Assembly (NCBI GenBank): GCA_017533825.1
Contig: JAFWIE010000058.1
Location: forward strand, 17,728 to 81,727
Reading direction: 5' to 3'
From: Atopobiaceae bacterium
Lineage (GTDB): Bacteria; Actinomycetota; Coriobacteriia; Coriobacteriales; Atopobiaceae
DNA: 64,000 bases
Numbering within the stretch: the stretch's first letter is position 1; every line of letters starts with the position of its first letter. Below are positions 6,620-16,951 of this stretch, one piece after another. The translations under genes and the position numbers were made by a program. The notes under the pieces were generated by a model. The model was not told where the DNA came from. It was given only the letters and a program-made list of their open reading frames with translations, and did not search any database.

Positions 6620-7498
6620 CTAAACGCATAAATCGAGTGGCAAGTCAGAAATGTCTTTGAGCCTTCGCCCCATGATCAATGCTTCCAAGGCATCAAGTGA
6701 ATCATCAACACCGCGTTCCTGCGAATATTGCTCCACTGCCTGTTGAAGCTCATACAGCGCGACATGATAAACACAATCGATATCTCCGGTACCAAGCGCC
6801 AATGAAGCCAGCCTTGAGGGCAGCGGTTCACCCGTGACTACGACAATATGAGGAAGGCGCCCCTTTCGATTGCGTATGAGGTTAAGTGCCTCTGTTCTAC
6901 TGTTTTGCGCTCGATCTGAACGAATGGTCCATTTTGCTGAAATTGATGCATGCAGAATGGGTTTACCTCCGTTTGACGCCCTCAAATCCGCTGCACCAGC
7001 TATTCCATCTTCAACAATCGTTTTACCCTCATTCATGTCATCATCGGAAACAAGCCCTCGCCAAACCACAATATCAGGAGAGACAACGTAGTCATTACCT
7101 ATCGCCATCCGAAGCTCGCTATCCTTCTCAACCATAGCTGCGAGATGAGCAAGATGTTCATACTGCGCGAATCCTTCGGCAATCCTATGACCTCGATTAC
7201 CGAGATTTGCCACATGCCAATCTCCCGGCCTCAATTGCTGTAGCTCACGAAATGTCCTCGCTATATAATCTGCAAGCTCACGCTCAAACACGGCACCGCT
7301 TGTTTGCCCACGCAGTTTTTTTCCACGAGGGGCGTCTAATATACGAGCTAAATGCAGTGCTATTTCTCGTGATGACCTGCTGCTCAAATCTGCATTGGAG
7401 GCTACTTCCCCATCCACAACCAACAAACCTGACTCGCATAGCCGCGTATGAAACAGATTTCTCTCAAATGCCAGCAACGAAGGACTCATATGAGACAT
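6620..7498 (-). CDS. Type II restriction endonuclease, NgoMIV/Cfr10I-like (CCGG-core family)
   Basis: ORF 6620..7594 in lower-GC DNA. Contains SPDIVVW (PD), SISAKWTIRSDRAQNSRTE = SxK, then R-S-D-R at K+4..K+7 and E at K+14. This matches my recollection of NgoMIV (D140, K187, R191-S-D-R194, E201). Start is either ATG 7498 or ATG 7489; the latter forms an ATGA overlap with the methylase stop. Confidence 0.6.
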   Translation of the reverse strand: MSHMSPSLLAFERNLFHTRLCESGLLVVDGEVASNADLSSRSSREIALHLARILDAPRGKKLRGQTSGAVFERELADYIARTFRELQQLRPGDWHVANLGNRGHRIAEGFAQYEHLAHLAAMVEKDSELRMAIGNDYVVSPDIVVWRGLVSDDDMNEGKTIVEDGIAGAADLRASNGGKPILHASISAKWTIRSDRAQNSRTEALNLIRNRKGRLPHIVVVTGEPLPSRLASLALGTGDIDCVYHVALYELQQAVEQYSQERGVDDSLDALEALIMGRRLKDISDLPLDLCV

Positions 7499-8427
7499 CT
7501 CGCAATCTCTCGTGCAACCGCCTCCGCGACTGGAGGAGGAAATGCATTTCCGATTTGTCGATAGGCTTTTGTTTTTCCCTTTCCGAAGTCCCATTCGTCA
7601 GGAAAGCCCTGAATTCGTGCGACCATGCGTGTCGTAAGGCGGGGCATTCCAACAAAGTCTTGGTCAGGTGCGGCATCAGCAATACCCTTACCATCTACAC
7701 CCAATGCAGCCCAAGCCCGCTTAGCTCGCACTGGACCAAGGTCGGGACCACCATGTTTAGTTGATCCTCCAACTACAGTTGGAGCAATACGATTGGCTCC
7801 ATCTGCCCAAATCTTTGCCTGCCGCCATGACCTCTCCTCCATGAGATCCAATAGCGTCTCTCCCACTGTAGGAGCTTCGCCATAAGCATCTGTGGACGGA
7901 AATACAAAATCCCTCTGAACGTCACGGCGCAGACCTACAATCACCACGCGGGGCCTGAGCTGTGGAACTCCGTAGTCCGAGGCATTTAGCAGGCTAATCC
8001 ACACTCGATACCCCATACGATTCAATTCGGCTAGAATCGCTTTGCGATAATCATCAAACTTTGACGTGAGCAAACCACGTACGTTCTCAAACATCACCGC
8101 ACGAGGATGAATATCATCGACAAGCCGTAACGCGTAAGGAAACATATCGCGCTCATCGTCTGCACCCAATCCCTTCCCCGCTATTGAGAATGGGGGACAT
8201 GGAACACCGCCAGCAAGCAAATCGATGCCTTCATACTCCGACCCGTCAAATTCGCGCAAATCCGCATTGATTACATTCCAGTCCGGCCGATTACGTAAGA
8301 GAGTCGCACAATAATCGGCCTCAATCTCAACCAGACCAACGTGCGTGAAGCCCGCCCGTGACGTTCCAAGAGCTTGCCCACCCGCACCGGCGCAAATCTC
8401 TAACACTTCTAGATTCTTTCTCGCCAA
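7486..8427 (-). CDS. dcm: DNA (cytosine-5)-methyltransferase
   Basis: 313-aa ORF with C5-MTase motifs: I LEICAGAGG, IV GGVPCPPFSIAG, VI ENV, VIII QLRPR, X NAFPPP. Confidence 0.9.
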   Translation of the reverse strand: MARKNLEVLEICAGAGGQALGTSRAGFTHVGLVEIEADYCATLLRNRPDWNVINADLREFDGSEYEGIDLLAGGVPCPPFSIAGKGLGADDERDMFPYALRLVDDIHPRAVMFENVRGLLTSKFDDYRKAILAELNRMGYRVWISLLNASDYGVPQLRPRVVIVGLRRDVQRDFVFPSTDAYGEAPTVGETLLDLMEERSWRQAKIWADGANRIAPTVVGGSTKHGGPDLGPVRAKRAWAALGVDGKGIADAAPDQDFVGMPRLTTRMVARIQGFPDEWDFGKGKTKAYRQIGNAFPPPVAEAVAREIARCLI

Positions 8428-8496: not shown

Positions 8497-9678
8497 CTAG
8501 CAGTAGCTGTCCCAGAGGGCCTGCCAGGCAGGCATGGAGTCGACGATGGTCTCGTAGCTCACGCAGTAGCCCACGCGCACCCATCCGGGGCAGCCGAACG
8601 AATCGCTGGGGACTGGCAACAGCTCGAAGCTCTTCGCCCGCTCAAAGAACGCGTTGGCGTCTGGCTCGAGCGCCTTCATCCACAGGTAGAACGCGCCCTG
8701 CGGCTCGACGAACTCATAGCCGATCTTTGCCAGGCCTTCGGTGAGTGCCTTGCGGTTGCGGGCGTACGCATCGATGTTGGTCGGCTCGTCCACGCAGTCG
8801 ATGAGAACCCTCTGGAAGAGTGCGGGGGCGCACACGAAGCCCATCTTCCGGCCAGCACCGGCCACGGCAGGCACCAACCGATCATGCTCGGGATTCGTAT
8901 TTGGCACGAGAACCCAGCCAATGCGCTCGCCGGGCAGGCTCAGCGACTTGGAGTACGAGTAGCACACGAGCGTGCGATCGTAGAGGTCGGGCACCCACGG
9001 GACCTCGACATCGTAGGCAATCTCACGGTACGGCTCATCGCTGATAAGGTAGATGGGTTGACCAAGTTCGCCGCCCTTCTTGCGCAGAAGCTCGGCAAGC
9101 TCTGCGAGGTTCTCGCGCGCATACACCGATCCCACGGGATTGTTGGGCGAGTCGATCATTACCGCCTTGGTGAGCGGGGTGATGGCATCCTCGACAGCGG
9201 CAACGTCAATCTGGAACGTCTGGGCGTCCGCCATGACCTCAACGCACTCAGCACCTGCGTTCTGGATAAAGACGGCATACTCGGGGAAGTAGGGCGCGAT
9301 GACAATCACTTGATCGCCCTCGTTGCAAATCGCATTGAGCACGATCGAAATGGATGCGGCGGCGCCACACGTGAGGTAGAGATCATCCGCACCATATGTC
9401 GTACCGAAGCGCCGATTGAGTGAGGCCGCCACGGCATTGCGCGCAGCAGGAAGACCGTTTGCAGGCGTGTAGCCATGCAGGGCAGTGGCGGGAAGGGTCA
9501 GCGCATGGCTTATGGAGTCACGAACGGCATCGGGCGCGGGCACGCTGGGATTGCCCAAGGAGAAATCGTAGACGTTCTCGGCACCAATCTCTGCCTTGCG
9601 GGCCGCACCATAGGCCGCAATCTCGCGAATGCTCGACTTAGAGGCCCCGTAAGCGTAGCTCTGCTCGTTTATGCTCAT
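8497..9678 (-). CDS. Class I/II PLP-dependent aminotransferase (aspartate/aromatic-type)
   Basis: 393-aa ORF with GAGAGGAG RBS. Contains NPSVP, IDSPNNPVG and YSYSKSLSLPGERIGW (PLP lysine motif). Confidence 0.85.
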   Translation of the reverse strand: MSINEQSYAYGASKSSIREIAAYGAARKAEIGAENVYDFSLGNPSVPAPDAVRDSISHALTLPATALHGYTPANGLPAARNAVAASLNRRFGTTYGADDLYLTCGAAASISIVLNAICNEGDQVIVIAPYFPEYAVFIQNAGAECVEVMADAQTFQIDVAAVEDAITPLTKAVMIDSPNNPVGSVYARENLAELAELLRKKGGELGQPIYLISDEPYREIAYDVEVPWVPDLYDRTLVCYSYSKSLSLPGERIGWVLVPNTNPEHDRLVPAVAGAGRKMGFVCAPALFQRVLIDCVDEPTNIDAYARNRKALTEGLAKIGYEFVEPQGAFYLWMKALEPDANAFFERAKSFELLPVPSDSFGCPGWVRVGYCVSYETIVDSMPAWQALWDSYC

Positions 9679-9950
9679 AAAAAGCTCCTCTCGATTGCGT
9701 ATGGCACATTGTAGCGCAGCCCCTGCTCACTTTCCCACAGCGGGAACGCGAACTCCTGAGGTGGAAACGTCGGCAAGGAGGCGATATGTGGATGCGGCGT
9801 GGCAAAGCAATGTAGGGCTTGTGACATTGGGTTTCGTAGTTTAGCGAGCACCCAAAGGGGAGAGAATGAGTGTAGCAGCAAATGACGCGACACGTCATTT
9901 CCCTTCTAGCTTGCGCGAGGCCAGCGTGCAACTTGCCAGAAGACGGCTAC

Positions 9951-9984
9951 AGGCCACCGGGTCCCTCCTTCCGCCCGGTGGCCT
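9951..9984 (-). terminator. Hairpin ending the dlt-associated unit
   Basis: aggccaccggg (9951..9961) pairs with cccggtggcct (9974..9984), immediately downstream of the stop at 10015 on the minus strand. Confidence 0.5.
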
Positions 9985-10014: not shown

Positions 10015-11202
10015 TCAATAGCGATTTGTTTGCCCGTATCCCGCTGAACTACCAGCCGAGCTGCCCGAGCCGCCATACGAATCGTCGTCGTACGAATTTG
10101 CATTGTCGTACGAGTTGGTGTTGCCGTACGTCGAGTCATCAGACGTCGCACCACCGGTCGCATCACCATACGTGGAGTTGCCATACGTCGAGCCTGAGGA
10201 GGAAGAGCCGTAATCGCTCGACCCGTCGCCATCCGAGTAGTCATCGTACCCGTAGCGATCCTCGTCATCGCTACCACCATAGGTATCGTCGTCATACCCC
10301 GAACCGGACTCACTTGAATCGTAGGTGCCCGACGTTCCACCGGTCGACTCCCCGGTATTGTAGCCATAGCCGTTGTCGTCTCCGGCCTCTCCCGTCTCGT
10401 CCTTCTTCTGGATTCGCAGACCTATCGCCTCGGCTGCATCCAAGTTTTGGCCTATGTCATCCACGAGGATGTCGTACCCGGCACGAGCGATCATCCACCC
10501 ATCGACTCCCAAGGAGGGATCGCACACGCTTCCCACACCGTCCAAGTTCGTTACCAGGCACAGTGCGCTTCCGTACTCTTCGCCGCTCGGCATCGAACGG
10601 ACAATCGGCACGGCGATGGCATCCGCGTAACCGAAGTAGCGTAGGCAAAGAGCAAGCACCGACGAGAACTCATAGTAGTCGCCTTGATACCCACCCATAC
10701 CATCATCGCTGGAGAAGTAGTCGCGCGCGGAACGAGCAACCCAGTCGGTACCCATGGGCTTGTCGACGCGATCGAGATACGTGCTCAGGACGATGGCATC
10801 GTACGTCTCCTTGGCAGCCTCTTCGACCTTGGCATCCTCAGGCGTGTGCTCGTCACAAAATGCCTTGATCCACGCATCGAGCTCTTCGTTGCCCACCGTG
10901 AAGCTGCCCGCTTGGTTCCAAGGATCAGCAACGCCCGCATAAGGCGCCGCTTCCTCGATTACCACTCCGTTGGCCTGATCTTCGCCCCTAATGGTGGCTT
11001 GCGCCTCGACTATCGAGTTGTTTGCGTATCGGTAAACGAAGACACCGCCGGCAAGGGCGGCAGCAAGGCATACGATGGGAAGGATACACGCGACAATGTC
11101 ATGCAGTATGGAGCCGCCTCGCTTCTGCTTCTTCTCCACCCGCTCTTCGTCTTCCGTACTGCGCACCGTGCACCTCCCACCCGCAGCGCTGCCCTTGGTC
11201 AT
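10015..11202 (-). CDS. Membrane-anchored transglutaminase-fold paralogue lacking the catalytic Cys and His, with a Tyr/Gly/Ser/Asp-rich tail
   Basis: 395-aa ORF with one N-terminal TM (ILHDIVACILPIVCLAAALAGGVFVY). It aligns without gaps to the neighbouring paralogue, but GDYYEFSS replaces GNCYEFAA and YGSALCLV replaces GDHGLVYV. About the last 120 aa are low complexity (YGYNTGESTGGTSGTYDSSESGSGYDDDTYGG...). Confidence 0.6.
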   Translation of the reverse strand: MTKGSAAGGRCTVRSTEDEERVEKKQKRGGSILHDIVACILPIVCLAAALAGGVFVYRYANNSIVEAQATIRGEDQANGVVIEEAAPYAGVADPWNQAGSFTVGNEELDAWIKAFCDEHTPEDAKVEEAAKETYDAIVLSTYLDRVDKPMGTDWVARSARDYFSSDDGMGGYQGDYYEFSSVLALCLRYFGYADAIAVPIVRSMPSGEEYGSALCLVTNLDGVGSVCDPSLGVDGWMIARAGYDILVDDIGQNLDAAEAIGLRIQKKDETGEAGDDNGYGYNTGESTGGTSGTYDSSESGSGYDDDTYGGSDDEDRYGYDDYSDGDGSSDYGSSSSGSTYGNSTYGDATGGATSDDSTYGNTNSYDNANSYDDDSYGGSGSSAGSSAGYGQTNRY

Positions 11203-11255
11203 TTCTATCCCCGCATGCGCGGGTCCATCATCCGTTCTTGACGCTCTGGATTCAG

Positions 11256-12347
11256 TTAGTCATTCTCCACGTCTTGGATCTGCACGTTGTATGCCGTTTC
11301 CTTAAGCATCCAACCATTGGTCCCCAACGAGGTGTCGCACAGGCTCGGCGTACCGTCTGTATTCGTCACGTATACCAGGCCGTGATCGCCCCAATCGCCA
11401 CTCTTCAGCTCGAGGATGACCGCTTCGGCATGAGCATCTTCCAAGCCAAGGTATTGGAGACAATAGCTGAGAAACGCCGCGAACTCGTAGCAGTTGCCTG
11501 AGCGGTCGTTCTCGTAGTACTGCCGCGCATACTCTATGCGCCAGTCCTTGCCAGCGGGATGCTGAGCATCATCGCGCTCCACGTACTCGGACCAAGCGAC
11601 GCCCTTGTATACCTCGAGGGCAGCGGTATCGATGTCCATATCGGTCGTGGCAATGCCGTCACAGAATTCCTTGACCTCCTCGTCGAGCGTCGCGTCACCC
11701 GTGGTGAACGTGCCCGAAGTAATCCAAGGCGACTTGACGCCGTTGCCGGACTTTGAGTCCTTGCGTGTAGACGTTTCGCTCGACGTCTCTTTCGATGTGG
11801 ATGTGCGCGCGTCAGCAGACGAGTCATCATCCTGCGTCGCGTCACCGGACTGCACCTGGGACGTCCCCTCACCTTCGGCCGAGGAGGCGGCCGCTACCTC
11901 AGCAGCACCCGAGCCAGCGGATCCGCCCACCGACTTCAGAACCAGTGAGCGCGTTACGAACGACGTTATCGCAATGGCAACGACGAACGCCACGAGCGTA
12001 GGGATGACCGGAAGACCCTGCCTGACGTCTGCCGGCCGAGAAGAGCGGGTGTCTCGCTCCCCTTCCCTGGTACGCGGCGTGGGACGAGCAGGCTCCACAC
12101 CCACCGCGCGATTCGCCGTGGAACTACGTCGCGGCGTCGCCGACCGGTCCGTCGCCTTTGTCCCAGAGGCAGCGGCAGCCTGTCCCCTTGTCGCGCCTGT
12201 GCTCTGAGCGCGTCGCCGCGTCGGCTGTTGACGCCTCACGCCCTCGTCGCGCGCTTGAGGACGATTGGACGAACCACCACGTCTGATTCGCGAACTGTCA
12301 ACGGACGCGGTACGACGCCGCCTTCCGTCCTCTGTAGCGTTGCTCAT
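11256..12347 (-). CDS. Membrane-anchored transglutaminase-like cysteine peptidase-fold protein with an Arg-rich cytoplasmic N-terminus
   Basis: 363-aa ORF. The N-terminal ~110 aa are R/S/T-rich, followed by a TM (LPVIPTLVAFVVAIAITSFV). The C-terminal domain has GNCYEFAAF .. GDHGLVYV .. LCDTSLG, which resembles a Cys-His-Asp transglutaminase-core triad. Confidence 0.6.
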   Translation of the reverse strand: MSNATEDGRRRRTASVDSSRIRRGGSSNRPQARDEGVRRQQPTRRRAQSTGATRGQAAAASGTKATDRSATPRRSSTANRAVGVEPARPTPRTREGERDTRSSRPADVRQGLPVIPTLVAFVVAIAITSFVTRSLVLKSVGGSAGSGAAEVAAASSAEGEGTSQVQSGDATQDDDSSADARTSTSKETSSETSTRKDSKSGNGVKSPWITSGTFTTGDATLDEEVKEFCDGIATTDMDIDTAALEVYKGVAWSEYVERDDAQHPAGKDWRIEYARQYYENDRSGNCYEFAAFLSYCLQYLGLEDAHAEAVILELKSGDWGDHGLVYVTNTDGTPSLCDTSLGTNGWMLKETAYNVQIQDVEND

Positions 12348-12360
12348 TCCTCACACCTAC

Positions 12361-12537
12361 CTAGAACTGGTTATAGATAAACTCCGCCGAGGACCCGAAT
12401 CCCGAGAACGTGACAAAGAGAAAGGTGGTCACGAGGGCCGCAGCCACCGACGCACCCACCACCACACATGCCAATGCGGGATGCTCGCCCATCCACGCGT
12501 CGTAGCGATCGCGCAGTGTCTTTTTTCTCTTACGCAC
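12361..12537 (-). CDS. dltX: DltX-like small membrane protein (58 aa), missing from the ORF track
   Basis: Manual translation gives (GTG)VRKRKKTLRDRYDAWMGEHPALACVVVGASVAAALVTTFLFVTFSGFGSSAEFIYNQF*. GGAGG lies about 8 nt upstream. It has a single TM and the C-terminal FIYNxF motif characteristic of DltX. It sits 43 nt after the dltD stop. Confidence 0.7.
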   Translation of the reverse strand: MRKRKKTLRDRYDAWMGEHPALACVVVGASVAAALVTTFLFVTFSGFGSSAEFIYNQF

Positions 12538-12580
12538 CAATTCCCCTCCTCGAGGACCACCGACAAGGCGTTCCGTCTCT

Positions 12581-13744
12581 CTATGTTACCCCTTGGGCAA
12601 ATTCGTATATCGCCCGCTCCGCATCAATCCACCCCGTCCATCCAAAGTGGACAATGTCAAAGAGGAAGTAGCGCTCATACTCCCGATCGCTGAAGTCGGC
12701 CAACCGTGCGCCGGGATGCGCAAGCACCACATCGCGAATGCGCTGGTATGCCGCTGCGCGCGTCTCCGCGGATATGCCGATGTGGTCGTAGTATGGTCCC
12801 ATGCTGGGCTCTATGACCACGAGCGGCTGGACGCCGCACTCAGCACACACATCCATGAAGCAGGCGAGGTCATCGTATTCGGGCGTGTCGGTATAGGTCT
12901 CTTCCGCCCGGGCACCCTGCAACTTGTCGAGCACGGGCGCGAGCTCCGTCTTCCAGAACTCATCCTCCGCGCCCCACTCGTTGGTCGTGCTCCGTCGCAT
13001 CGCCTCGCTCAGCGCCTCGTTCCTAAGGGCATCCCAGTCCGGTGCCACCACATCACCTTGAGCGCGGGCGATGCCCCGGGACCGCACGTCAATGAGTTGC
13101 CCACGCAGGCGCAAATCATCGATGAGGGAGAGCACGCACCCGTCGATGCTGGCCAACGGATCGTCTCCGGACGCAGCACGCAATGTGGCTTCGTCAATCC
13201 CTTGTTCTGCAAGGCGCCTGCGCACATACGCACGCGTCTCGGCGTCGATGCGTTCGTTCTTGCAAAAGGCCCGATACAGCGTGTAGGAGAATCTCTCGCC
13301 AAAGGACGCGTTGTCCAAGCCACCATCCGTGTACTCGCCCAGACTCACTACGAGCACCACCTTGTTGCGCGGCAGACCTCCATCCGCGAGGGCTCCCAGA
13401 GCGATGGCATGCCAGAGCGCCTGGTCGAACGCCTCCCCCACCAACATAGGCCGTACGCCATAGTTCGTGGTACCAAACACCTGCGCCGGCACCTGGGCGA
13501 CCGTCGACGCTGGCGTGGAGAACTCAGACGAACCCAGCATGAGCAGGGAGTCCTCGGGAAGGTTTGCGCGCACGAAGTCCACGCTCGAGGACTTTGCACC
13601 AGAATACACATAGCCGTAATCGACGAGCGTATCCGTCGCTTCCTGCTTCGGCAGCAAGAGACACGTTGCCACCACAACGCAGGCGGCAACTGCAACGCCG
13701 CACCCAAGCGCGGCAAGTCTCCTATGCAAGGTGTGTGCTTTCAC
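12581..13744 (-). CDS. dltD: D-alanyl-lipoteichoic acid biosynthesis protein DltD
   Basis: 387-aa ORF with a GTG start after AGGAGAC. N-terminal anchor, the LGSSEF serine motif, and its position after dltC. Confidence 0.85.
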   Translation of the reverse strand: MKAHTLHRRLAALGCGVAVAACVVVATCLLLPKQEATDTLVDYGYVYSGAKSSSVDFVRANLPEDSLLMLGSSEFSTPASTVAQVPAQVFGTTNYGVRPMLVGEAFDQALWHAIALGALADGGLPRNKVVLVVSLGEYTDGGLDNASFGERFSYTLYRAFCKNERIDAETRAYVRRRLAEQGIDEATLRAASGDDPLASIDGCVLSLIDDLRLRGQLIDVRSRGIARAQGDVVAPDWDALRNEALSEAMRRSTTNEWGAEDEFWKTELAPVLDKLQGARAEETYTDTPEYDDLACFMDVCAECGVQPLVVIEPSMGPYYDHIGISAETRAAAYQRIRDVVLAHPGARLADFSDREYERYFLFDIVHFGWTGWIDAERAIYEFAQGVT

Positions 13745-13751
13745 GTGTCTC

Positions 13752-13991
13752 CTAGAGGCGCTCGCTCACGCGCGCAATGATCTTGTTGACCGTGTTCATC
13801 TCGCTCCGATCGAGCTCGGTAGGAGCGATCGATACACCGAACTCGTCCTTGATGGCCACGAGCAGCTCGATTGCTGCCATCGAATCAAGAATCTCCTCCT
13901 CGAAGAGATCGATGTCGCGCTCGTCCGCAACTTCGTCCTCACCCGAAATTTCCACTACGAGGTCCACAATCTGCTCTGCTATGTCTGCCAT
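13752..13991 (-). CDS. dltC: D-alanyl carrier protein
   Basis: ORF 13752..14015. The start MADIAEQ at 13991 follows GAGGAGG. Contains the LDSM phosphopantetheine serine motif. Confidence 0.85.
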   Translation of the reverse strand: MADIAEQIVDLVVEISGEDEVADERDIDLFEEEILDSMAAIELLVAIKDEFGVSIAPTELDRSEMNTVNKIIARVSERL

Positions 13992-14027
13992 GTCGTTCCT
14001 CCTCAACAAACGCAAACGATTGACACC

Positions 14028-15215
14028 TTATCCGAGCAAAGGCGTCACCACATATCCCCCAAACAGGGCAAAGCCAAAGAATACCGCCACCATGGTAACC
14101 GCCCATGAAGCAACCATGAACCACCTATCGCGGCGATGTGCCTTATAGAACTTCCACTTCTTCTGCATCGCATGACAACCGGCAAGCAACAGGCCGTGAT
14201 ACAGACCATATACGAGGTAATCCGGCGTGATGCCATGCCAGGCACCCATCAGGACCATGTTGAGCATGAAGCCGACGCACGCACAGGTCAGACGCGACTT
14301 GAACAGCTTATGCGAGATGGCGAACTGAGAAAAGCGCATGAACACAAAGTCGCGCAGCCACGTCGAGAGCGATATGTGCCAACGGTCCCAGAATTCCTTG
14401 ATGTCCGTGGCCACGAATGGCGCACGAAAGTTGCGCGGTACCTCGACTCCCAGCACGAGACCCAAGCCCATGGCCATGTCCGAATACCCGGCAAAGTCAA
14501 AGAAGAGGTCCATCCCGTAACCAAAGACGGTGACCAGCCAGCCGAGTACGCCACCTCCGACCACAACGGGAACGAACCACATGAACCACTGTGCGAGCGC
14601 AGCGCCGACGAACTTATACAAGGCGCCGAGGACGAACCAACCAAGTCCCCGATACAGTCGATCCAGGTACCCATCACGCGAGAGCGGCGTACGCACGTCC
14701 TGCACATAGGCACGGCTGCGCATGATGGGTCCCGAGGTGAACGTGGGAAAGAAGCTCAGGAACCCCAAGTACTCAAGGTACGTCATGTCGGTGATGAGTC
14801 CGTCATGCACCTCGAGGAGCACCTGCACGGCCTTGAACGTGATGTACGAGATGCCGAGGAAGCCGGGAAAATCCGGCCTCACGAGCACACCCACCTTATA
14901 CGCCACAAGCGGAAGCAGTTGCACCCCAACCAGCACACCATACGGCAGCGAGCGCATGCCATGCGGCGCGTCCTCGGAACGGCTTGAATCCTCCCGGGAC
15001 CAAAGCGCCACCCCATACAACGCGACCGATACCGCTAGGTACACCGCGGCATATATGAGCGTTCCCGGTGTCCTGAAGAACAACAGGAACAGCATGACCA
15101 CCGAGACAACGAGCGAATACCGCTTAAGCGGCCGCTCAAGCACTCCCATCACGCACGCAATGATAGCTATGGGTGCGCATAACACAAAGAATGCGGGCTC
15201 AACGTAGAAGTCCAT
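14028..15215 (-). CDS. dltB: MBOAT-family D-alanyl transfer protein DltB
   Basis: 395-aa polytopic ORF containing WDRWHISLSTWLRDFVF (MBOAT histidine region), located between dltA and dltC. Confidence 0.9.
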   Translation of the reverse strand: MDFYVEPAFFVLCAPIAIIACVMGVLERPLKRYSLVVSVVMLFLLFFRTPGTLIYAAVYLAVSVALYGVALWSREDSSRSEDAPHGMRSLPYGVLVGVQLLPLVAYKVGVLVRPDFPGFLGISYITFKAVQVLLEVHDGLITDMTYLEYLGFLSFFPTFTSGPIMRSRAYVQDVRTPLSRDGYLDRLYRGLGWFVLGALYKFVGAALAQWFMWFVPVVVGGGVLGWLVTVFGYGMDLFFDFAGYSDMAMGLGLVLGVEVPRNFRAPFVATDIKEFWDRWHISLSTWLRDFVFMRFSQFAISHKLFKSRLTCACVGFMLNMVLMGAWHGITPDYLVYGLYHGLLLAGCHAMQKKWKFYKAHRRDRWFMVASWAVTMVAVFFGFALFGGYVVTPLLG

Positions 15216-15224
15216 ATGGTTTGC

Positions 15225-16799
15225 CTAGGCGTCAATGAGGTCGGCAAGTGCCTTGCGATCTGCCTTTCCATTGCTGTTGAGCGGCATCTCGTCAAGATAC
15301 TTGAACGTGCGAGGAATCATGTACGATGGCAACATGTCGCGCACCTGCGCCTTGATCTGTCGCGTCAGACGCAAACCACGTTCGGCAGCGTCCCCAGCGG
15401 GGACCACGAAGGCGGTGAGGTGGTGAATGGCACCCCCACGTCGAACGGGCAGGACACATGCCATGTGTACGAGCGGCGTCGCGCACAAGGTCGCCTCAAT
15501 ATCGCCCAGCTCGATGCGGTAGCCATGCAGCTTTATCTGAAGGTCGAGTCTGCCGTGGAAGTAATACAGCCCATCAGCCTCACGCGTTACCTCGTCGCCC
15601 GTACGATACGATCGTCGTCCGCGCGCGAGGTGTTCCGGGCATCGTCCAAACGCGACCTCCGTCAGGTCGGGCCTGCCATAGTACCCCTTCGCAACCGTGT
15701 TGCCTGCCACGAATAGCTCTCCGGGCTTGCCGTCAGGCACCTCTTCCAGCGTCTCAGGGTCGAGCACCACGAGGTCGGACCACTTCTTGGCATAGCCAAT
15801 CGGCAAGGCCACGTCATCCGCAAGCATCTCGTCGGTTATCTCGCACAGCGTGATAAGGTCGGTCGACTCAGTGGGACCATACCCGTTGTAGACATGCAAT
15901 CCGGGGAAGCGCCGCTTCACCTCGCGCACCGTCGCCGGTCGCAGCGTCTCTCCTGCCAAGAGCATGCGCTTGAGATGCGGCATGAGCGTGGCATTATATT
16001 TGTCGTCGGCAAGGCATTGCTCGACGAAGCTCGGCGTGGAGACCCAGTCGGTCGCGTCGCAGGTGGCAAGCACCTCGAAGGTCGTTCCCAGACTTGCGTC
16101 CGCCTCCTTCTCGAGGGCGAAGGTCGTGTCGCCTCGCGTGGTGCCACACACCAAGTCAGTGATGCTCACATCGAAGGAATAGGGGGTGCGGTTGAACCAG
16201 ATGCGGGGCCCGTCCTCCTCGAATACGTAGTCGCTCATCATCCAACGCGAGAACTCGTCCACGCATTCGGTGGTAATCTCGACGCCCTTGGGGTCACCCG
16301 TCGAACCCGAGGTGAACAGTATGTAGAAGGTGCGTGTCGCATCGGTGCCGGGTAGCGCTGCCACCTCGTCCTCACAGGGCGTGGAGGTGCAGATCTCCGT
16401 AAGCTCAGCGATGGAAAGCAGTCGGGCATCTCCCGCCCCACTCTTGCCACTGCCTGAGGCAGTGGTGTCGATGAGGAGCGTATTGCCAGTCTGAGCAACG
16501 ATGCGCGCCACGCGCTCGGGCGGATACACCGTGTCTACCGGCGCGTACGCATGGCCGGACTTGGCGCACGCCAGCATCGAGACCAACATGTACGGCGACT
16601 TGTGTCCGTAGATCACCACCGGTACACCCGAGTCCACATGCGTGGAATCGGCCAGCCAACAGGCAAGCGCATTCGACCGCGCACGCAGCTCGGCATACGT
16701 AATCTGCTCTCCGCGACTATTGCAGAAGGCTACTCGATCGGGGTTTTGGAGCGCTTGTGCGTCGATGGCGTCGACAAGCTCACTACCAGTCATGCGCAT
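15225..16799 (-). CDS. dltA: D-alanine--D-alanyl carrier protein ligase
   Basis: 524-aa adenylation enzyme with FTSGSTGDPKGV, GYGPTE, YRTGD and GKADRK. Confidence 0.9.
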   Translation of the reverse strand: MRMTGSELVDAIDAQALQNPDRVAFCNSRGEQITYAELRARSNALACWLADSTHVDSGVPVVIYGHKSPYMLVSMLACAKSGHAYAPVDTVYPPERVARIVAQTGNTLLIDTTASGSGKSGAGDARLLSIAELTEICTSTPCEDEVAALPGTDATRTFYILFTSGSTGDPKGVEITTECVDEFSRWMMSDYVFEEDGPRIWFNRTPYSFDVSITDLVCGTTRGDTTFALEKEADASLGTTFEVLATCDATDWVSTPSFVEQCLADDKYNATLMPHLKRMLLAGETLRPATVREVKRRFPGLHVYNGYGPTESTDLITLCEITDEMLADDVALPIGYAKKWSDLVVLDPETLEEVPDGKPGELFVAGNTVAKGYYGRPDLTEVAFGRCPEHLARGRRSYRTGDEVTREADGLYYFHGRLDLQIKLHGYRIELGDIEATLCATPLVHMACVLPVRRGGAIHHLTAFVVPAGDAAERGLRLTRQIKAQVRDMLPSYMIPRTFKYLDEMPLNSNGKADRKALADLIDA

Positions 16800-16801
16800 C
16801 C

Positions 16802-16951
16802 CTAGTCATCGTTGACGACGGGCATGTCCTCGCCGTAGCAATTGTCCTGCTCTTCCTTCTGGCCGCCGCCACAGCCGGCAAGCCCGAGCGTGGCAAACGC
16901 CAAGGTAATGGCCAGTATCATCGAAAGGAACTTGCGCGTACGGTTGTTCAT
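16802..16951 (-). CDS. 49-aa lipoprotein micro-ORF translationally coupled to dltA
   Basis: Manual translation gives MNNRTRKFLSMILAITLAFATLGLAGCGGGQKEEQDNCYGEDMPVVNDD*. It has a basic n-region, a hydrophobic core and an LAGC lipobox. GGAG lies 7 nt upstream. The stop is 2 nt before the dltA ATG. It is below the ORF-track length cutoff. Confidence 0.6.
   Translation of the reverse strand: MNNRTRKFLSMILAITLAFATLGLAGCGGGQKEEQDNCYGEDMPVVNDD

What the first reader, a model, noticed from the sequence alone, without database searches (positions are those of the whole stretch)
10015..12347. Tandem paralogues: a putatively active transglutaminase-like protein next to a catalytically dead copy with a Tyr/Gly/Ser/Asp-rich tail
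The C-terminal domains align without gaps. RSGNCYEFAAFLSYCLQYLG..GDHGLVYVTNTDGTPSLCDTSLGTNGWM in 11256..12347 aligns with YQGDYYEFSSVLALCLRYFG..YGSALCLVTNLDGVGSVCDPSLGVDGWM in 10015..11202. The first keeps a Cys-His-Asp arrangement typical of the transglutaminase/papain-like core. The second has Cys changed to Tyr and His changed to Ser. Both have a single N-terminal TM, so the domains should face outward. The dead copy ends in a ~120-aa tail of YG/SG/DD repeats. The active copy begins with a ~110-aa Arg-rich cytoplasmic segment. An enzyme/pseudoenzyme pair of this kind often means a regulatory or scaffold partnership.
Basis: partly seen in the sequence, partly recalled or inferred. Interest (0 to 1): 0.6.

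Follow-up and report, generated by a model that had tools for sequence, protein, structure and literature searches.

The report
Dlt-operon transglutaminase-fold enzyme plus dead paralogue
Two neighbouring genes in a rumen actinobacterium encode surface-tethered transglutaminase-fold proteins, one with an intact Cys-His-Asp site and one inactive copy, and the active one is a conserved, undescribed extra gene of the cell-wall D-alanylation (dlt) operon.

Summary
Genes A (11256-12347, minus) and B (10015-11202, minus) are paralogues: 38% identity over 163 aa, E=4e-36.

- **Fold:** AlphaFold models of both domains are confident (pLDDT 95.5 and 93). Their only significant PDB matches are transglutaminase-like proteins: PeiP/PeiW, arylamine N-acyltransferases, LapG and vasohibins.
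- **Active site:** A-type proteins keep Cys/His/Asp in 79/80, 80/80 and 80/80 sequences. B-type proteins have Cys replaced by Tyr/Val/Ala and His by Ser/Ala/Gly/Thr. B is still under purifying selection (dN/dS 0.10).
- **Context the finding left out:** the pair closes a dltA-B-C-D-X operon. In all 18 species-representative Coriobacteriales genomes that carry the family, an A-type gene follows dltD and a DltX-like micro-ORF ending FIYNQF. Flanking genes differ between genomes.
- **B is optional:** it occurs in only 4 of those 18 genomes, so A does not depend on it.

Best reading (about 0.45): A is an extracytoplasmic, membrane-tethered accessory enzyme of the Dlt pathway. It would act on D-alanyl esters through a Cys thioester. 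Whether it transfers or hydrolyses is open. B would be a non-catalytic binding or scaffold paralogue.

Main rival: a wall peptidase that is only co-transcribed with dlt.

No function is demonstrated. I found no paper linking such proteins to dlt.

The parts
11256..12347 (-). Gene A, 363 aa. Arg-rich cytoplasmic N-terminus (12009-12347), one TM segment (11952-12008), Ser/Ala/Gly/Thr/Asp-rich linker (11742-11951), transglutaminase-fold domain (11259-11741).
   Evidence: ORF. Segments. AF2 model pLDDT 95.5. Foldseek hits to PeiP/PeiW, NAT and LapG. hhalign 99.6% to Transglut_core-bearing proteins.
11490..11492 (-). Codon of the predicted catalytic Cys286 (GNCYEF). It sits at the N-terminus of helix 89-102 of the domain model.
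   Evidence: Cys is present in 79 of 80 A-type proteins.
11382..11384 (-). Codon of the predicted catalytic His322 (GDHGLV), in a beta-strand of the model.
   Evidence: His is present in 80 of 80.
11334..11336 (-). Codon of the predicted catalytic Asp338 (LCDTS), at the end of the next strand.
   Evidence: Asp is present in 80 of 80 A-type and 16 of 16 B-type proteins.
10015..11202 (-). Gene B, 395 aa, the inactive paralogue. TM segment 11041-11097, domain 10441-10935 (Tyr176 at 10675-10677 and Ser212 at 10567-10569 replace Cys and His), conserved DDIGQNLDxAExxGL segment, then a Gly/Ser/Asp/Tyr-rich tail (10018-10440) ending in Tyr.
   Evidence: AF2 model pLDDT 93. Foldseek hits to LapG, PeiP and TglA. 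dN/dS 0.10.
12361..12540 (-). DltX-like micro-ORF of 58-59 aa: basic N-terminus, one TM segment, C-terminus ...SAEFIYNQF. Its stop lies 13 nt before the ATG of gene A.
   Evidence: An ORF with the same ending lies in the same place in every dlt-linked locus. The motif matches FIYNEF of L. plantarum DltX (PMC13653941). No Pfam or NCBIfam hit.
12581..13744 (-). dltD
   Evidence: Pfam DltD E=7e-72. NCBIfam TIGR04092 227.5 bits against a cutoff of 150.
13752..14015 (-). dltC (carrier protein)
   Evidence: Pfam PP-binding. NCBIfam DltC 81 bits against a cutoff of 68.
14028..15215 (-). dltB (MBOAT)
   Evidence: Pfam MBOAT. NCBIfam TIGR04091 393.8 bits against a cutoff of 375.
15225..16799 (-). dltA-like adenylating enzyme (divergent)
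   Evidence: Pfam AMP-binding. The best NCBIfam family is DltA, but just under the cutoffs: 472.7 against 476, and 453 against 559.85.
9951..9984 (-). GC-rich hairpin (11-bp stem) 31 nt after the stop of gene B, with no U-run. It may mark the end of the transcription unit.
   Evidence: Sequence read directly. The consensus terminator scan did not call it.

Best explanation
Gene A encodes a type II membrane protein: an Arg-rich tail inside the cell, one TM helix, and a flexible linker of about 70 aa outside. The linker holds a 160-aa transglutaminase-fold domain with a Cys286-His322-Asp338 triad on the outer face of the membrane.

A is the seventh gene of a dltA-B-C-D-X operon and works with the D-alanylation machinery. 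The proposed chemistry is inferred, not shown. The Cys would attack a D-alanyl ester, either on the Tyr of the DltX C-terminal FIYNQF motif or on an already D-alanylated envelope polymer. This would form a D-alanyl-thioester enzyme. That intermediate would then be resolved in one of two ways. It could pass the D-alanyl group to a second acceptor further out in the wall (relay transferase). Or it could be resolved by water (esterase that trims or regulates D-Ala, the role DltE has in Lactiplantibacillus plantarum).

Gene B is a duplicate that lost Cys, His and several pocket residues but kept the fold. It gained a conserved helix and a Gly/Ser/Asp/Tyr-rich tail that ends in Tyr. It is retained as a non-catalytic binding or scaffold protein in one sub-lineage only.

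Shown here: fold, triad conservation, loss of the triad in B, purifying selection, operon position and its conservation.
Inferred: topology, substrate, reaction, and any A-B contact.
For: 1. Fold and site. The AF2 model has pLDDT 95.5, with Cys at a helix N-terminus and His and Asp on or just after adjacent strands. All significant Foldseek hits are transglutaminase-like Cys enzymes. hhalign of the family against 61 remote relatives gives 99.6% probability and E=1e-24, with the C, H and D columns aligned. All 61 of those relatives carry Pfam Transglut_core.

2. Triad conservation. Cys/His/Asp are present in 79, 80 and 80 of 80 A-type proteins.

3. Operon. dltB, dltC and dltD pass NCBIfam equivalog cutoffs. 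dltX stops 13 nt before A, and A stops 53 nt before B.

4. Conserved neighbourhood. 18 of 19 loci, covering all 18 species-representative genomes with the family, have dltD, then dltX (FIYNQF*), then A. So do the more distant L027, L029 and L030. The genes outside the cluster differ: FtsH or glutaredoxin upstream, and aminotransferase, LUD, GntR, POR or GT8 downstream.

5. Further link to envelope acylation. In L008, L010 and L019 a second MBOAT, ending FIYFQF or FIYFRF, lies directly after A. In L008 a DHHW (SGNH-like) protein follows it, by Pfam.

6. Precedent. L. plantarum has a lineage-specific extracellular accessory enzyme, DltE, encoded in its dlt operon. It is an LTA D-Ala esterase that binds the DltX C-terminus (PMC13653941).

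7. B is maintained. dN/dS is 0.10 for L008 against L010, and the ORF is intact in at least 16 clusters.
Against: - No biochemical or genetic data exist for any member.
- The closest structural matches are peptidases (PeiP/PeiW, LapG), at only TM about 0.5.
- Remote relatives carry wall-binding modules (SLH, ChW, CWB2). The one remote relative whose contig was long enough to show its neighbours (P0216) is not dlt-linked. The P0179 contig was too short to tell.
- Stand-alone family members exist away from dlt: L020, L028, and L001/L002.
- The window's DltA falls just below the NCBIfam DltA cutoffs, so even the amino acid carried is not certain.
- RNA evidence for co-transcription is limited to a few short metatranscriptome contigs.
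Confidence: 0.45

Rival explanations
1. A is a cell-wall peptidase or isopeptidase, acting on peptidoglycan cross-bridges or another wall peptide. It is co-transcribed with dlt only because both belong to envelope maintenance, and it never touches D-alanyl esters.
For: The best Foldseek hits are the pseudomurein endoisopeptidases PeiP and PeiW (E=7e-5 to 9e-4). The remote sequence relatives are secreted Transglut_core proteins with SLH, ChW, CWB2 or choline-binding wall anchors. Family copies exist outside dlt operons.
Against: A has no wall-binding module. Its position directly after dltX is kept in 18 of 18 genomes while the outer neighbours change. Such persistence is unusual for a merely co-regulated gene. 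Extra copies also insert inside the dlt cluster: one between dltA and dltB in L024, and a fused two-domain form after dltX in L027.
Confidence: 0.25
2. A is a regulatory protease of the LapG or vasohibin type. It would cleave a surface protein of the system, for example trimming the DltX C-terminal motif or the Tyr-terminated tail of B, and so tune D-alanylation.
For: LapG and vasohibins are among the structural matches. DltX function depends on its extreme C-terminus (PMC13653941). B-type tails nearly always end in Tyr.
Against: Most genomes with A lack B. No cleavage-site motif was identified. This reading rests on fold-level resemblance alone.
Confidence: 0.1
3. One reading: A and B form an obligate enzyme/pseudoenzyme heterodimer, in which B regulates or scaffolds A.
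For: The genes are adjacent with a 53-nt gap. Both have the same fold and the same predicted topology. B is under purifying selection. A natural fusion of two domains of this family exists (P0100).
Against: B is absent from 14 of the 18 species-representative genomes that have A. In L008 and L010 two other genes separate A from B. The fused partner in P0100 keeps its own Cys and His, so it is not a dead copy. No interaction prediction could be run.
Confidence: 0.3

Closest known systems
Transglutaminase-like superfamily, Transglut_core (Pfam PF01841): secreted or wall-anchored bacterial members of unknown function
   Same: Same fold. Same G-x-C-x-x-F-A ... H ... D spacing (36 and 16 residues). 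Shares the N-terminal helical sub-domain with the (F/Y)TSGDxxLD motif. Profile-profile probability is 99.6%.
   Different: A and B do not reach any Pfam threshold themselves. They are anchored by an N-terminal TM helix instead of SLH, ChW or CWB2 modules. They sit in dlt operons. The one remote relative with readable neighbours (P0216) does not.
Pseudomurein endoisopeptidases PeiW/PeiP (PDB 8jx4, 8z4f)
   Same: These are the best structural matches (E=7e-5, TMq 0.54). They are Cys-His-Asp enzymes that act on a cell-wall isopeptide bond.
   Different: Identity is only 15-21%. Pfam found no pseudomurein-binding repeats in A or B. The hosts are phages of methanogens, not an actinobacterial dlt operon.
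Arylamine N-acyltransferases (Pfam PF00797; PDB 8k51, 2pfr, 4bgf)
   Same: This is the only Pfam family that touches A (E=0.0036, residues 279-347). RSGNCYEF resembles the NAT motif around the catalytic Cys, as I recall it. The ping-pong acyl transfer through a Cys thioester is the chemistry proposed here.
   Different: The score is below the gathering cutoff (17.6 against 22.8). Only positions 42-111 of the 240-position model match. NATs are cytoplasmic, acetyl-CoA-dependent, three-domain enzymes. A is a 160-aa domain predicted to lie outside the membrane.
DltE of Lactiplantibacillus plantarum (LTA D-Ala esterase encoded in the dlt operon)
   Same: It is a lineage-specific, membrane-anchored, extracellular accessory enzyme encoded within a dlt operon, and it binds the DltX C-terminal motif (PMC13653941). 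It is the nearest functional analogy.
   Different: The paper describes DltE as using catalytic Ser128 and Lys131, unlike A's Cys-His-Asp site. There is no homology to A.
LapG (bacterial transglutaminase-like cysteine proteinase; PDB 4fgp)
   Same: Same fold, in a protease that works outside the cytoplasm. It is the top structural match for B.
   Different: Identity is 9-12%. No LapD/LapA-type partners are present here.

Membership tests
Transglutaminase-like (papain-like) superfamily | Alpha/beta fold with the nucleophile Cys at the N-terminus of a helix and His and Asp on following beta-strands | tested here: met
   AF2 model pLDDT 95.5. Cys is domain residue 89, at the start of helix 89-102. 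His125 lies in strand 122-131. Asp141 comes just after strand 137-140. All Foldseek hits with E<=1e-3 are superfamily members.
Transglutaminase-like (papain-like) superfamily | Conserved Cys-His-Asp triad | tested here: met
   For A: 79/80, 80/80 and 80/80. The columns align with the invariant C and H and the >=90%-conserved D of Transglut_core-bearing relatives. For B the feature is NOT met: Cys is Y/V/A and His is S/A/G/T.
Pfam Transglut_core PF01841 | HMM match at the gathering threshold | tested here: not met
   Neither A nor B gives any PF01841 hit, even at E<=1. The link is indirect: a profile search reaches proteins that all carry PF01841.
Arylamine N-acetyltransferase PF00797 | HMM match at the gathering threshold over the full three-domain enzyme | tested here: not met
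   17.6 bits against a cutoff of 22.8. Only model positions 42-111 of 240 match.
Dlt D-alanylation operon (as an accessory member) | Same strand as and adjacent to dltABCD/X, with short intergenic gaps | tested here: met
   13 nt between dltX and A, and 53 nt between A and B. dltB, dltC and dltD pass NCBIfam equivalog cutoffs.
Dlt D-alanylation operon (as an accessory member) | Neighbourhood conserved across species while the outer flanks vary | tested here: met
   18 of 19 loci, covering all 18 GTDB species genomes, plus L027, L029 and L030.
Dlt D-alanylation operon (as an accessory member) | Needed for, or changes, D-alanylation of envelope polymers | not testable with these tools
   This needs genetics or biochemistry.
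Dlt D-alanylation operon (as an accessory member) | Co-transcription with dltABCDX | tested here: inconclusive
   Only short metatranscriptome contigs were found (151-316 nt, mostly 95-99% identical to the window). One spans the dltX 3' end and the A start (12186-12370). One reaches from inside B's 5' end to 10 nt before the A stop (11105-11246). DNA carry-over is not excluded.
DltX (for the micro-ORF 12361-12540) | Small single-TM protein with the C-terminal FxYxxF motif | tested here: met
   It ends ...EFIYNQF, and the same ending occurs in all dlt-linked loci. L. plantarum DltX has FIYNEF (PMC13653941).
DltX (for the micro-ORF 12361-12540) | Match to a curated DltX HMM | tested here: not met
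   No Pfam or NCBIfam family at E<=10.
Pseudoenzyme (for B) | Catalytic residues lost, but fold kept and sequence under purifying selection | tested here: met
   (pLDDT 93), and (dN/dS 0.10 for the unsaturated pair L008-L010).
Pseudomurein endoisopeptidase (Pei, peptidase family C71) | Pseudomurein-binding repeats plus a C71 catalytic domain | tested here: not met
   The similarity is at fold level only (TMq 0.41-0.54, 15-21% identity). Pfam found no binding repeats.

The most novel reading that the evidence does not exclude
A is a previously unrecognised extracytoplasmic D-alanyl relay enzyme. Its Cys would take D-Ala from the DltX tyrosine ester, or from D-Ala-LTA, as a thioester. Held on its 70-aa tether, it would deliver D-Ala to an acceptor further out in the wall, possibly as a stable amide rather than a labile ester. 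The Tyr- and Ser-rich, Tyr-terminated tail of B would serve as an acceptor, reservoir or docking partner. This would give an enzyme for the step beyond DltD. As I recall the field, no enzyme is known for the transfer of D-Ala from LTA to wall polymers. Earlier AI notes of this scan report transglutaminase-like surface proteins in Dlt-like operons of gut Clostridia too. I did not test those notes. If they hold, a Cys-based outer step may be a recurrent feature of such systems.
Probability: 0.15. Interest if true: 0.85.

Novelty: new variant of a known kind. Interest (0 to 1): 0.58.

Why it matters
The Dlt pathway sets the surface charge of Gram-positive bacteria and their resistance to cationic antimicrobial peptides. 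Its steps outside the membrane are still described as poorly understood (PMC13653941).

Here a whole lineage keeps an extra, surface-exposed Cys-His-Asp enzyme fixed directly after dltX. That points to an additional extracellular step (transfer, editing or removal) that the Firmicute model systems lack or perform differently.

The dead paralogue is a natural enzyme/pseudoenzyme pair within one operon. The family currently has no annotation: every source name is "hypothetical protein", and there is no Pfam or NCBIfam hit at threshold.

Tried and rejected
- **Sequence search of the PDB with A:** only low-complexity chance hits.
- **Pfam and NCBIfam on A and B:** nothing at threshold.
- **The search for related loci with the mixed A+B alignment:** failed because no stretch was conserved enough. 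Repeated with A-type sequences only.
- **Curated DltX models:** no hit for the micro-ORF.
- **Contexts of two remote Transglut_core relatives:** P0216 lies beside PP2C phosphatase and kinase genes. The P0179 contig is too short to judge. Neither adds support for a wider dlt link.
- **Metatranscriptomes:** only fragmentary contigs, so co-transcription is not established.
- **Literature:** no paper holds both "transglutaminase-like" and "dlt operon", and none on TglA of S. pyogenes. The search on Coriobacteriia and dltD returned nothing relevant.

Rejected readings:
- B as a decaying pseudogene. The ORF is intact in 16 clusters and dN/dS is 0.10.
- A as a true arylamine N-acetyltransferase. The score is below cutoff, the architecture is wrong, and the predicted location is outside the cell.
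- The A/B similarity as chance (E=4e-36).
Full report
**1. What is in the sequence**

On the minus strand the window carries two adjacent ORFs exactly where the finding says. Gene A runs 12347..11256 and encodes 363 aa. Gene B runs 11202..10015 and encodes 395 aa. BLASTP of A against B gives 38% identity over 163 residues, E=4e-36.

A has Cys286, His322 and Asp338. B has Tyr176, Ser212 and Asp228 at the aligned columns.

- A has a 113-aa N-terminus with 26 Arg and net charge +16. One hydrophobic segment (114-132) follows, then a 70-aa Ser/Ala/Gly/Thr/Asp-rich linker, then the domain (203-363).
- B has a short N-terminus ending KKQKRGG, one hydrophobic segment (36-54), a 35-aa linker and the domain (90-254).
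- After the domain, B has a conserved DDIGQNLDxAExxGL segment and a Gly/Ser/Asp/Tyr-rich tail.

By the positive-inside rule both domains should face outward. That is an inference from composition, not a test.

**2. The fold**

I modelled the A domain with AlphaFold2 on a 59-sequence alignment. The result was pLDDT 95.5 and pTM 0.92. Cys sits at the N-terminus of a helix, His lies on the next long strand, and Asp comes just after the strand that follows it.

Foldseek against the PDB returns only transglutaminase-like Cys enzymes at the top:
- pseudomurein endoisopeptidases PeiP and PeiW (E=7e-5 to 9e-4, TMq up to 0.54)
- arylamine N-acyltransferases
- LapG
- a putative cysteine protease (3isr)
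- TglA
- vasohibins
- PNGase

The B domain gives an equally confident model (pLDDT 93) with the same secondary-structure order. Its top hits include many of the same proteins (LapG, PeiP, TglA and 3isr).

At sequence level, Pfam gives only a sub-threshold hit of A to N-acetyltransferase PF00797 (E=0.0036).

I then searched 1.84 billion representative proteins with a profile of 27 domain sequences. It found 84 family members at E<1e-30, then a tail of about 360 remote hits. I scanned 61 of the remote hits. All 61 carry Pfam Transglut_core. Of these, 27 also have SLH domains, and others have ChW, CWB2 or choline-binding repeats. hhalign between the two alignments gives 99.6% probability and E=1e-24, with the Cys, His and Asp columns in register.

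The fold claim and the triad claim are therefore supported. I could not measure side-chain distances because the model coordinates were not exposed.

**3. The dead copy is a real, maintained lineage**

Among 80 A-type proteins, Cys/His/Asp are present in 79, 80 and 80. Among 16 B-type proteins, Cys is Tyr, Val or Ala, His is Ser, Ala, Gly or Thr, and Asp is always kept.

B has also lost other residues that are invariant in A: the YVERxxAQ motif, the Asn before Cys, and the WGD before His. This fits a dismantled pocket rather than a swapped nucleophile.

For the one unsaturated orthologue pair (L008 and L010), dN/dS is 0.13 for A and 0.10 for B. Over longer distances B accumulates about twice the dN of A.

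B-type tails vary in length (58-166 aa) and in sequence, but keep their composition. Of the 17 B-type sequences I inspected, 13 end in Tyr and two more end in Tyr-Val.

**4. The context that changes the reading**

Upstream on the same strand lie five genes:
- a dltA-like adenylating enzyme (16799..15225)
- dltB (15215..14028)
- dltC (14015..13752)
- dltD (13744..12581)
- a 59-aa ORF (12540..12361)

dltB, dltC and dltD pass NCBIfam equivalog cutoffs. DltA is the best family for the first gene, but it scores just below cutoff.

The 59-aa ORF ends ...SAEFIYNQF, and its stop is 13 nt before the ATG of A. No curated HMM recognises it. Its size, single TM segment and C-terminal hexapeptide match DltX, whose motif is FIYNEF in L. 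plantarum. That motif is described as the transient D-alanyl carrier between DltB and DltD (PMC13653941).

A GC-rich hairpin follows B.

A and B are therefore genes six and seven of a dltA-B-C-D-X-A-B unit. They would be seven and eight if the 49-aa lipoprotein-like ORF before dltA is counted.

**5. Conservation of that arrangement**

A scan of one genome per GTDB species found 19 loci in 18 genomes. All are uncultured Atopobiaceae or Coriobacteriales from ruminant guts.

In 18 of those loci an A-type gene follows dltD and a micro-ORF ending FIYNQF, or FIYSQF in one case. The nineteenth locus (L020) is a second, stand-alone copy in a genome whose first copy is dlt-linked.

Metagenomic contigs of more distant members show the same order:
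- P0141 in L030
- P0158 in L029
- the fused two-domain P0100 in L027

The genes outside the cluster differ between genomes. The linkage is therefore to dlt and not to a larger syntenic block.

Three members lie elsewhere:
- P0080 (L001/L002), which has Tyr in place of Cys but keeps His
- P0164 (L028)
- the copy in L020

B-type genes accompany A in the window, in L004/L005/L011, in L006/L007, and in L008, L009 and L010. That is 4 of the 18 species genomes.

The family has duplicated repeatedly inside dlt clusters. Besides B there is a third type with an intact triad (GGNCFSMA). It is inserted between dltA and dltB in L024 and fused behind an A-type domain in P0100.

In L008, L010 and L019 a second MBOAT, whose own C-terminus ends FIYFQF or FIYFRF, lies immediately after A. 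In L008 Pfam shows that a DHHW (SGNH-like) protein follows it. In L008 and L010 this insert separates A from B.

**6. How it most likely works**

Shown here:
- a conserved, apparently intact Cys-His-Asp domain of a superfamily whose members all work through an acyl-thioester on Cys
- a predicted position outside the membrane on a long flexible tether
- a fixed position after dltX

Inferred: the substrate is a D-alanyl ester, either on DltX-Tyr or on the modified polymer, and the acyl-enzyme is resolved by transfer or by hydrolysis. I cannot separate these two outcomes with the data at hand.

The nearest functional precedent is DltE of L. plantarum. It is an unrelated, Ser-based, operon-encoded LTA D-Ala esterase that binds the DltX C-terminus.

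I give the Dlt-accessory reading 0.45.

The main rival is a wall peptidase that is merely co-transcribed with dlt (0.25). It is supported by the Pei hits and by the wall-anchored remote relatives. Against it are the absence of any wall-binding module in A and the strict gene order.

A LapG- or vasohibin-like regulatory protease acting on DltX or on the B tail gets 0.1.

It is possible for the sub-lineage that has B (0.3). It cannot be general, because most genomes with A lack B.

**7. Comparison with what is known, and novelty**

A belongs to the transglutaminase-like superfamily by fold, by triad and by profile-profile similarity. It fails the Pfam thresholds of both Transglut_core and NAT, and no source annotates it.

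I found no paper connecting transglutaminase-like proteins with dlt.

Earlier AI notes of this scan report two related things:
- the same kind of extra gene in the dlt operon of another gut actinobacterium
- transglutaminase-like surface proteins in Dlt-like operons of gut Clostridia

I treat these as leads. My 18-genome survey independently confirms the actinobacterial case. I did not test the clostridial one.

I class the finding as a new variant of a known kind: a known fold in a new, conserved association with a well-studied pathway, with a natural pseudoenzyme partner.

**8. Limits**

- All members come from uncultured organisms.
- The acceptor polymer is unknown.
- The window's DltA is divergent.
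- RNA support is fragmentary.
- No interaction model could be computed.

Noticed in passing
window 12361-12540 (-): A DltX-like micro-ORF lies after dltD instead of before dltA. It ends FIYNQF and no Pfam or NCBIfam model recognises it. It is conserved in every dlt-linked relative. Relatives begin MARKK, so the true start may be the GTG at 12537.
   Followed up: yes
window 16802-16951 (-): A 49-aa ORF with a lipoprotein-type signal (LAGC) ends 2 nt before the dltA ATG. Small unannotated ORFs of 73 and 51 aa occupy the same place in L004 and L006. No Pfam hit.
   Followed up: partly
L008 8547-11572; also L010 and L019, about 8830-9970: A second MBOAT protein lies directly after gene A. Its own C-terminus ends FIYFQF or FIYFRF, a DltX-like motif fused to the MBOAT. 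In L008 Pfam shows a DHHW (PF14286, SGNH/AlgX-like) protein after it. In L008 and L010 this insert separates A from B.
   Followed up: partly
L027 1881-3686 (P0100); L024 3843-4310: A third paralogue type with an intact Cys and His (GGNCFSMA...LDHGLTWV). In L027 it is fused behind an A-type domain in one 601-aa protein after dltX. In L024 it is a separate gene between dltA and dltB.
   Followed up: partly
window 15225-16799 (-); L003 3038-4573: Two DltA types occur in this clade. The window's DltA is 62-81% identical to most relatives but only 40-42% identical to those of L003/L016, L018, L019 and L024, while DltB stays near 70%. The window's DltA falls just under the NCBIfam DltA cutoffs. The L003 type scores higher.
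   Followed up: partly
window 10018-10440 (-) and B-type orthologues: B-type tails differ widely in length and sequence. Of 17 inspected, 13 end in Tyr and two more in Tyr-Val. This is far more than the roughly 7-12% Tyr content of the tails would give.
   Followed up: partly
L001 8001-9575 (P0080): A stand-alone family member of 524 aa has Tyr in place of the catalytic Cys but keeps His and Asp. It is not near dlt. It lies between a RelB-like gene and VTC/DUF4956 genes. This looks like a second, independent loss of the nucleophile.
   Followed up: no
window 6620-8427 (-): An NgoMIV-type restriction enzyme (Pfam E=8e-115) and a C5 cytosine methyltransferase (E=2e-67) lie in a stretch of lower G+C (0.53 against about 0.60).
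   Followed up: no
window 9951-9984 (-): An 11-bp GC-rich hairpin without a U-run lies 31 nt after the stop of gene B. The consensus terminator scan missed it.
   Followed up: no
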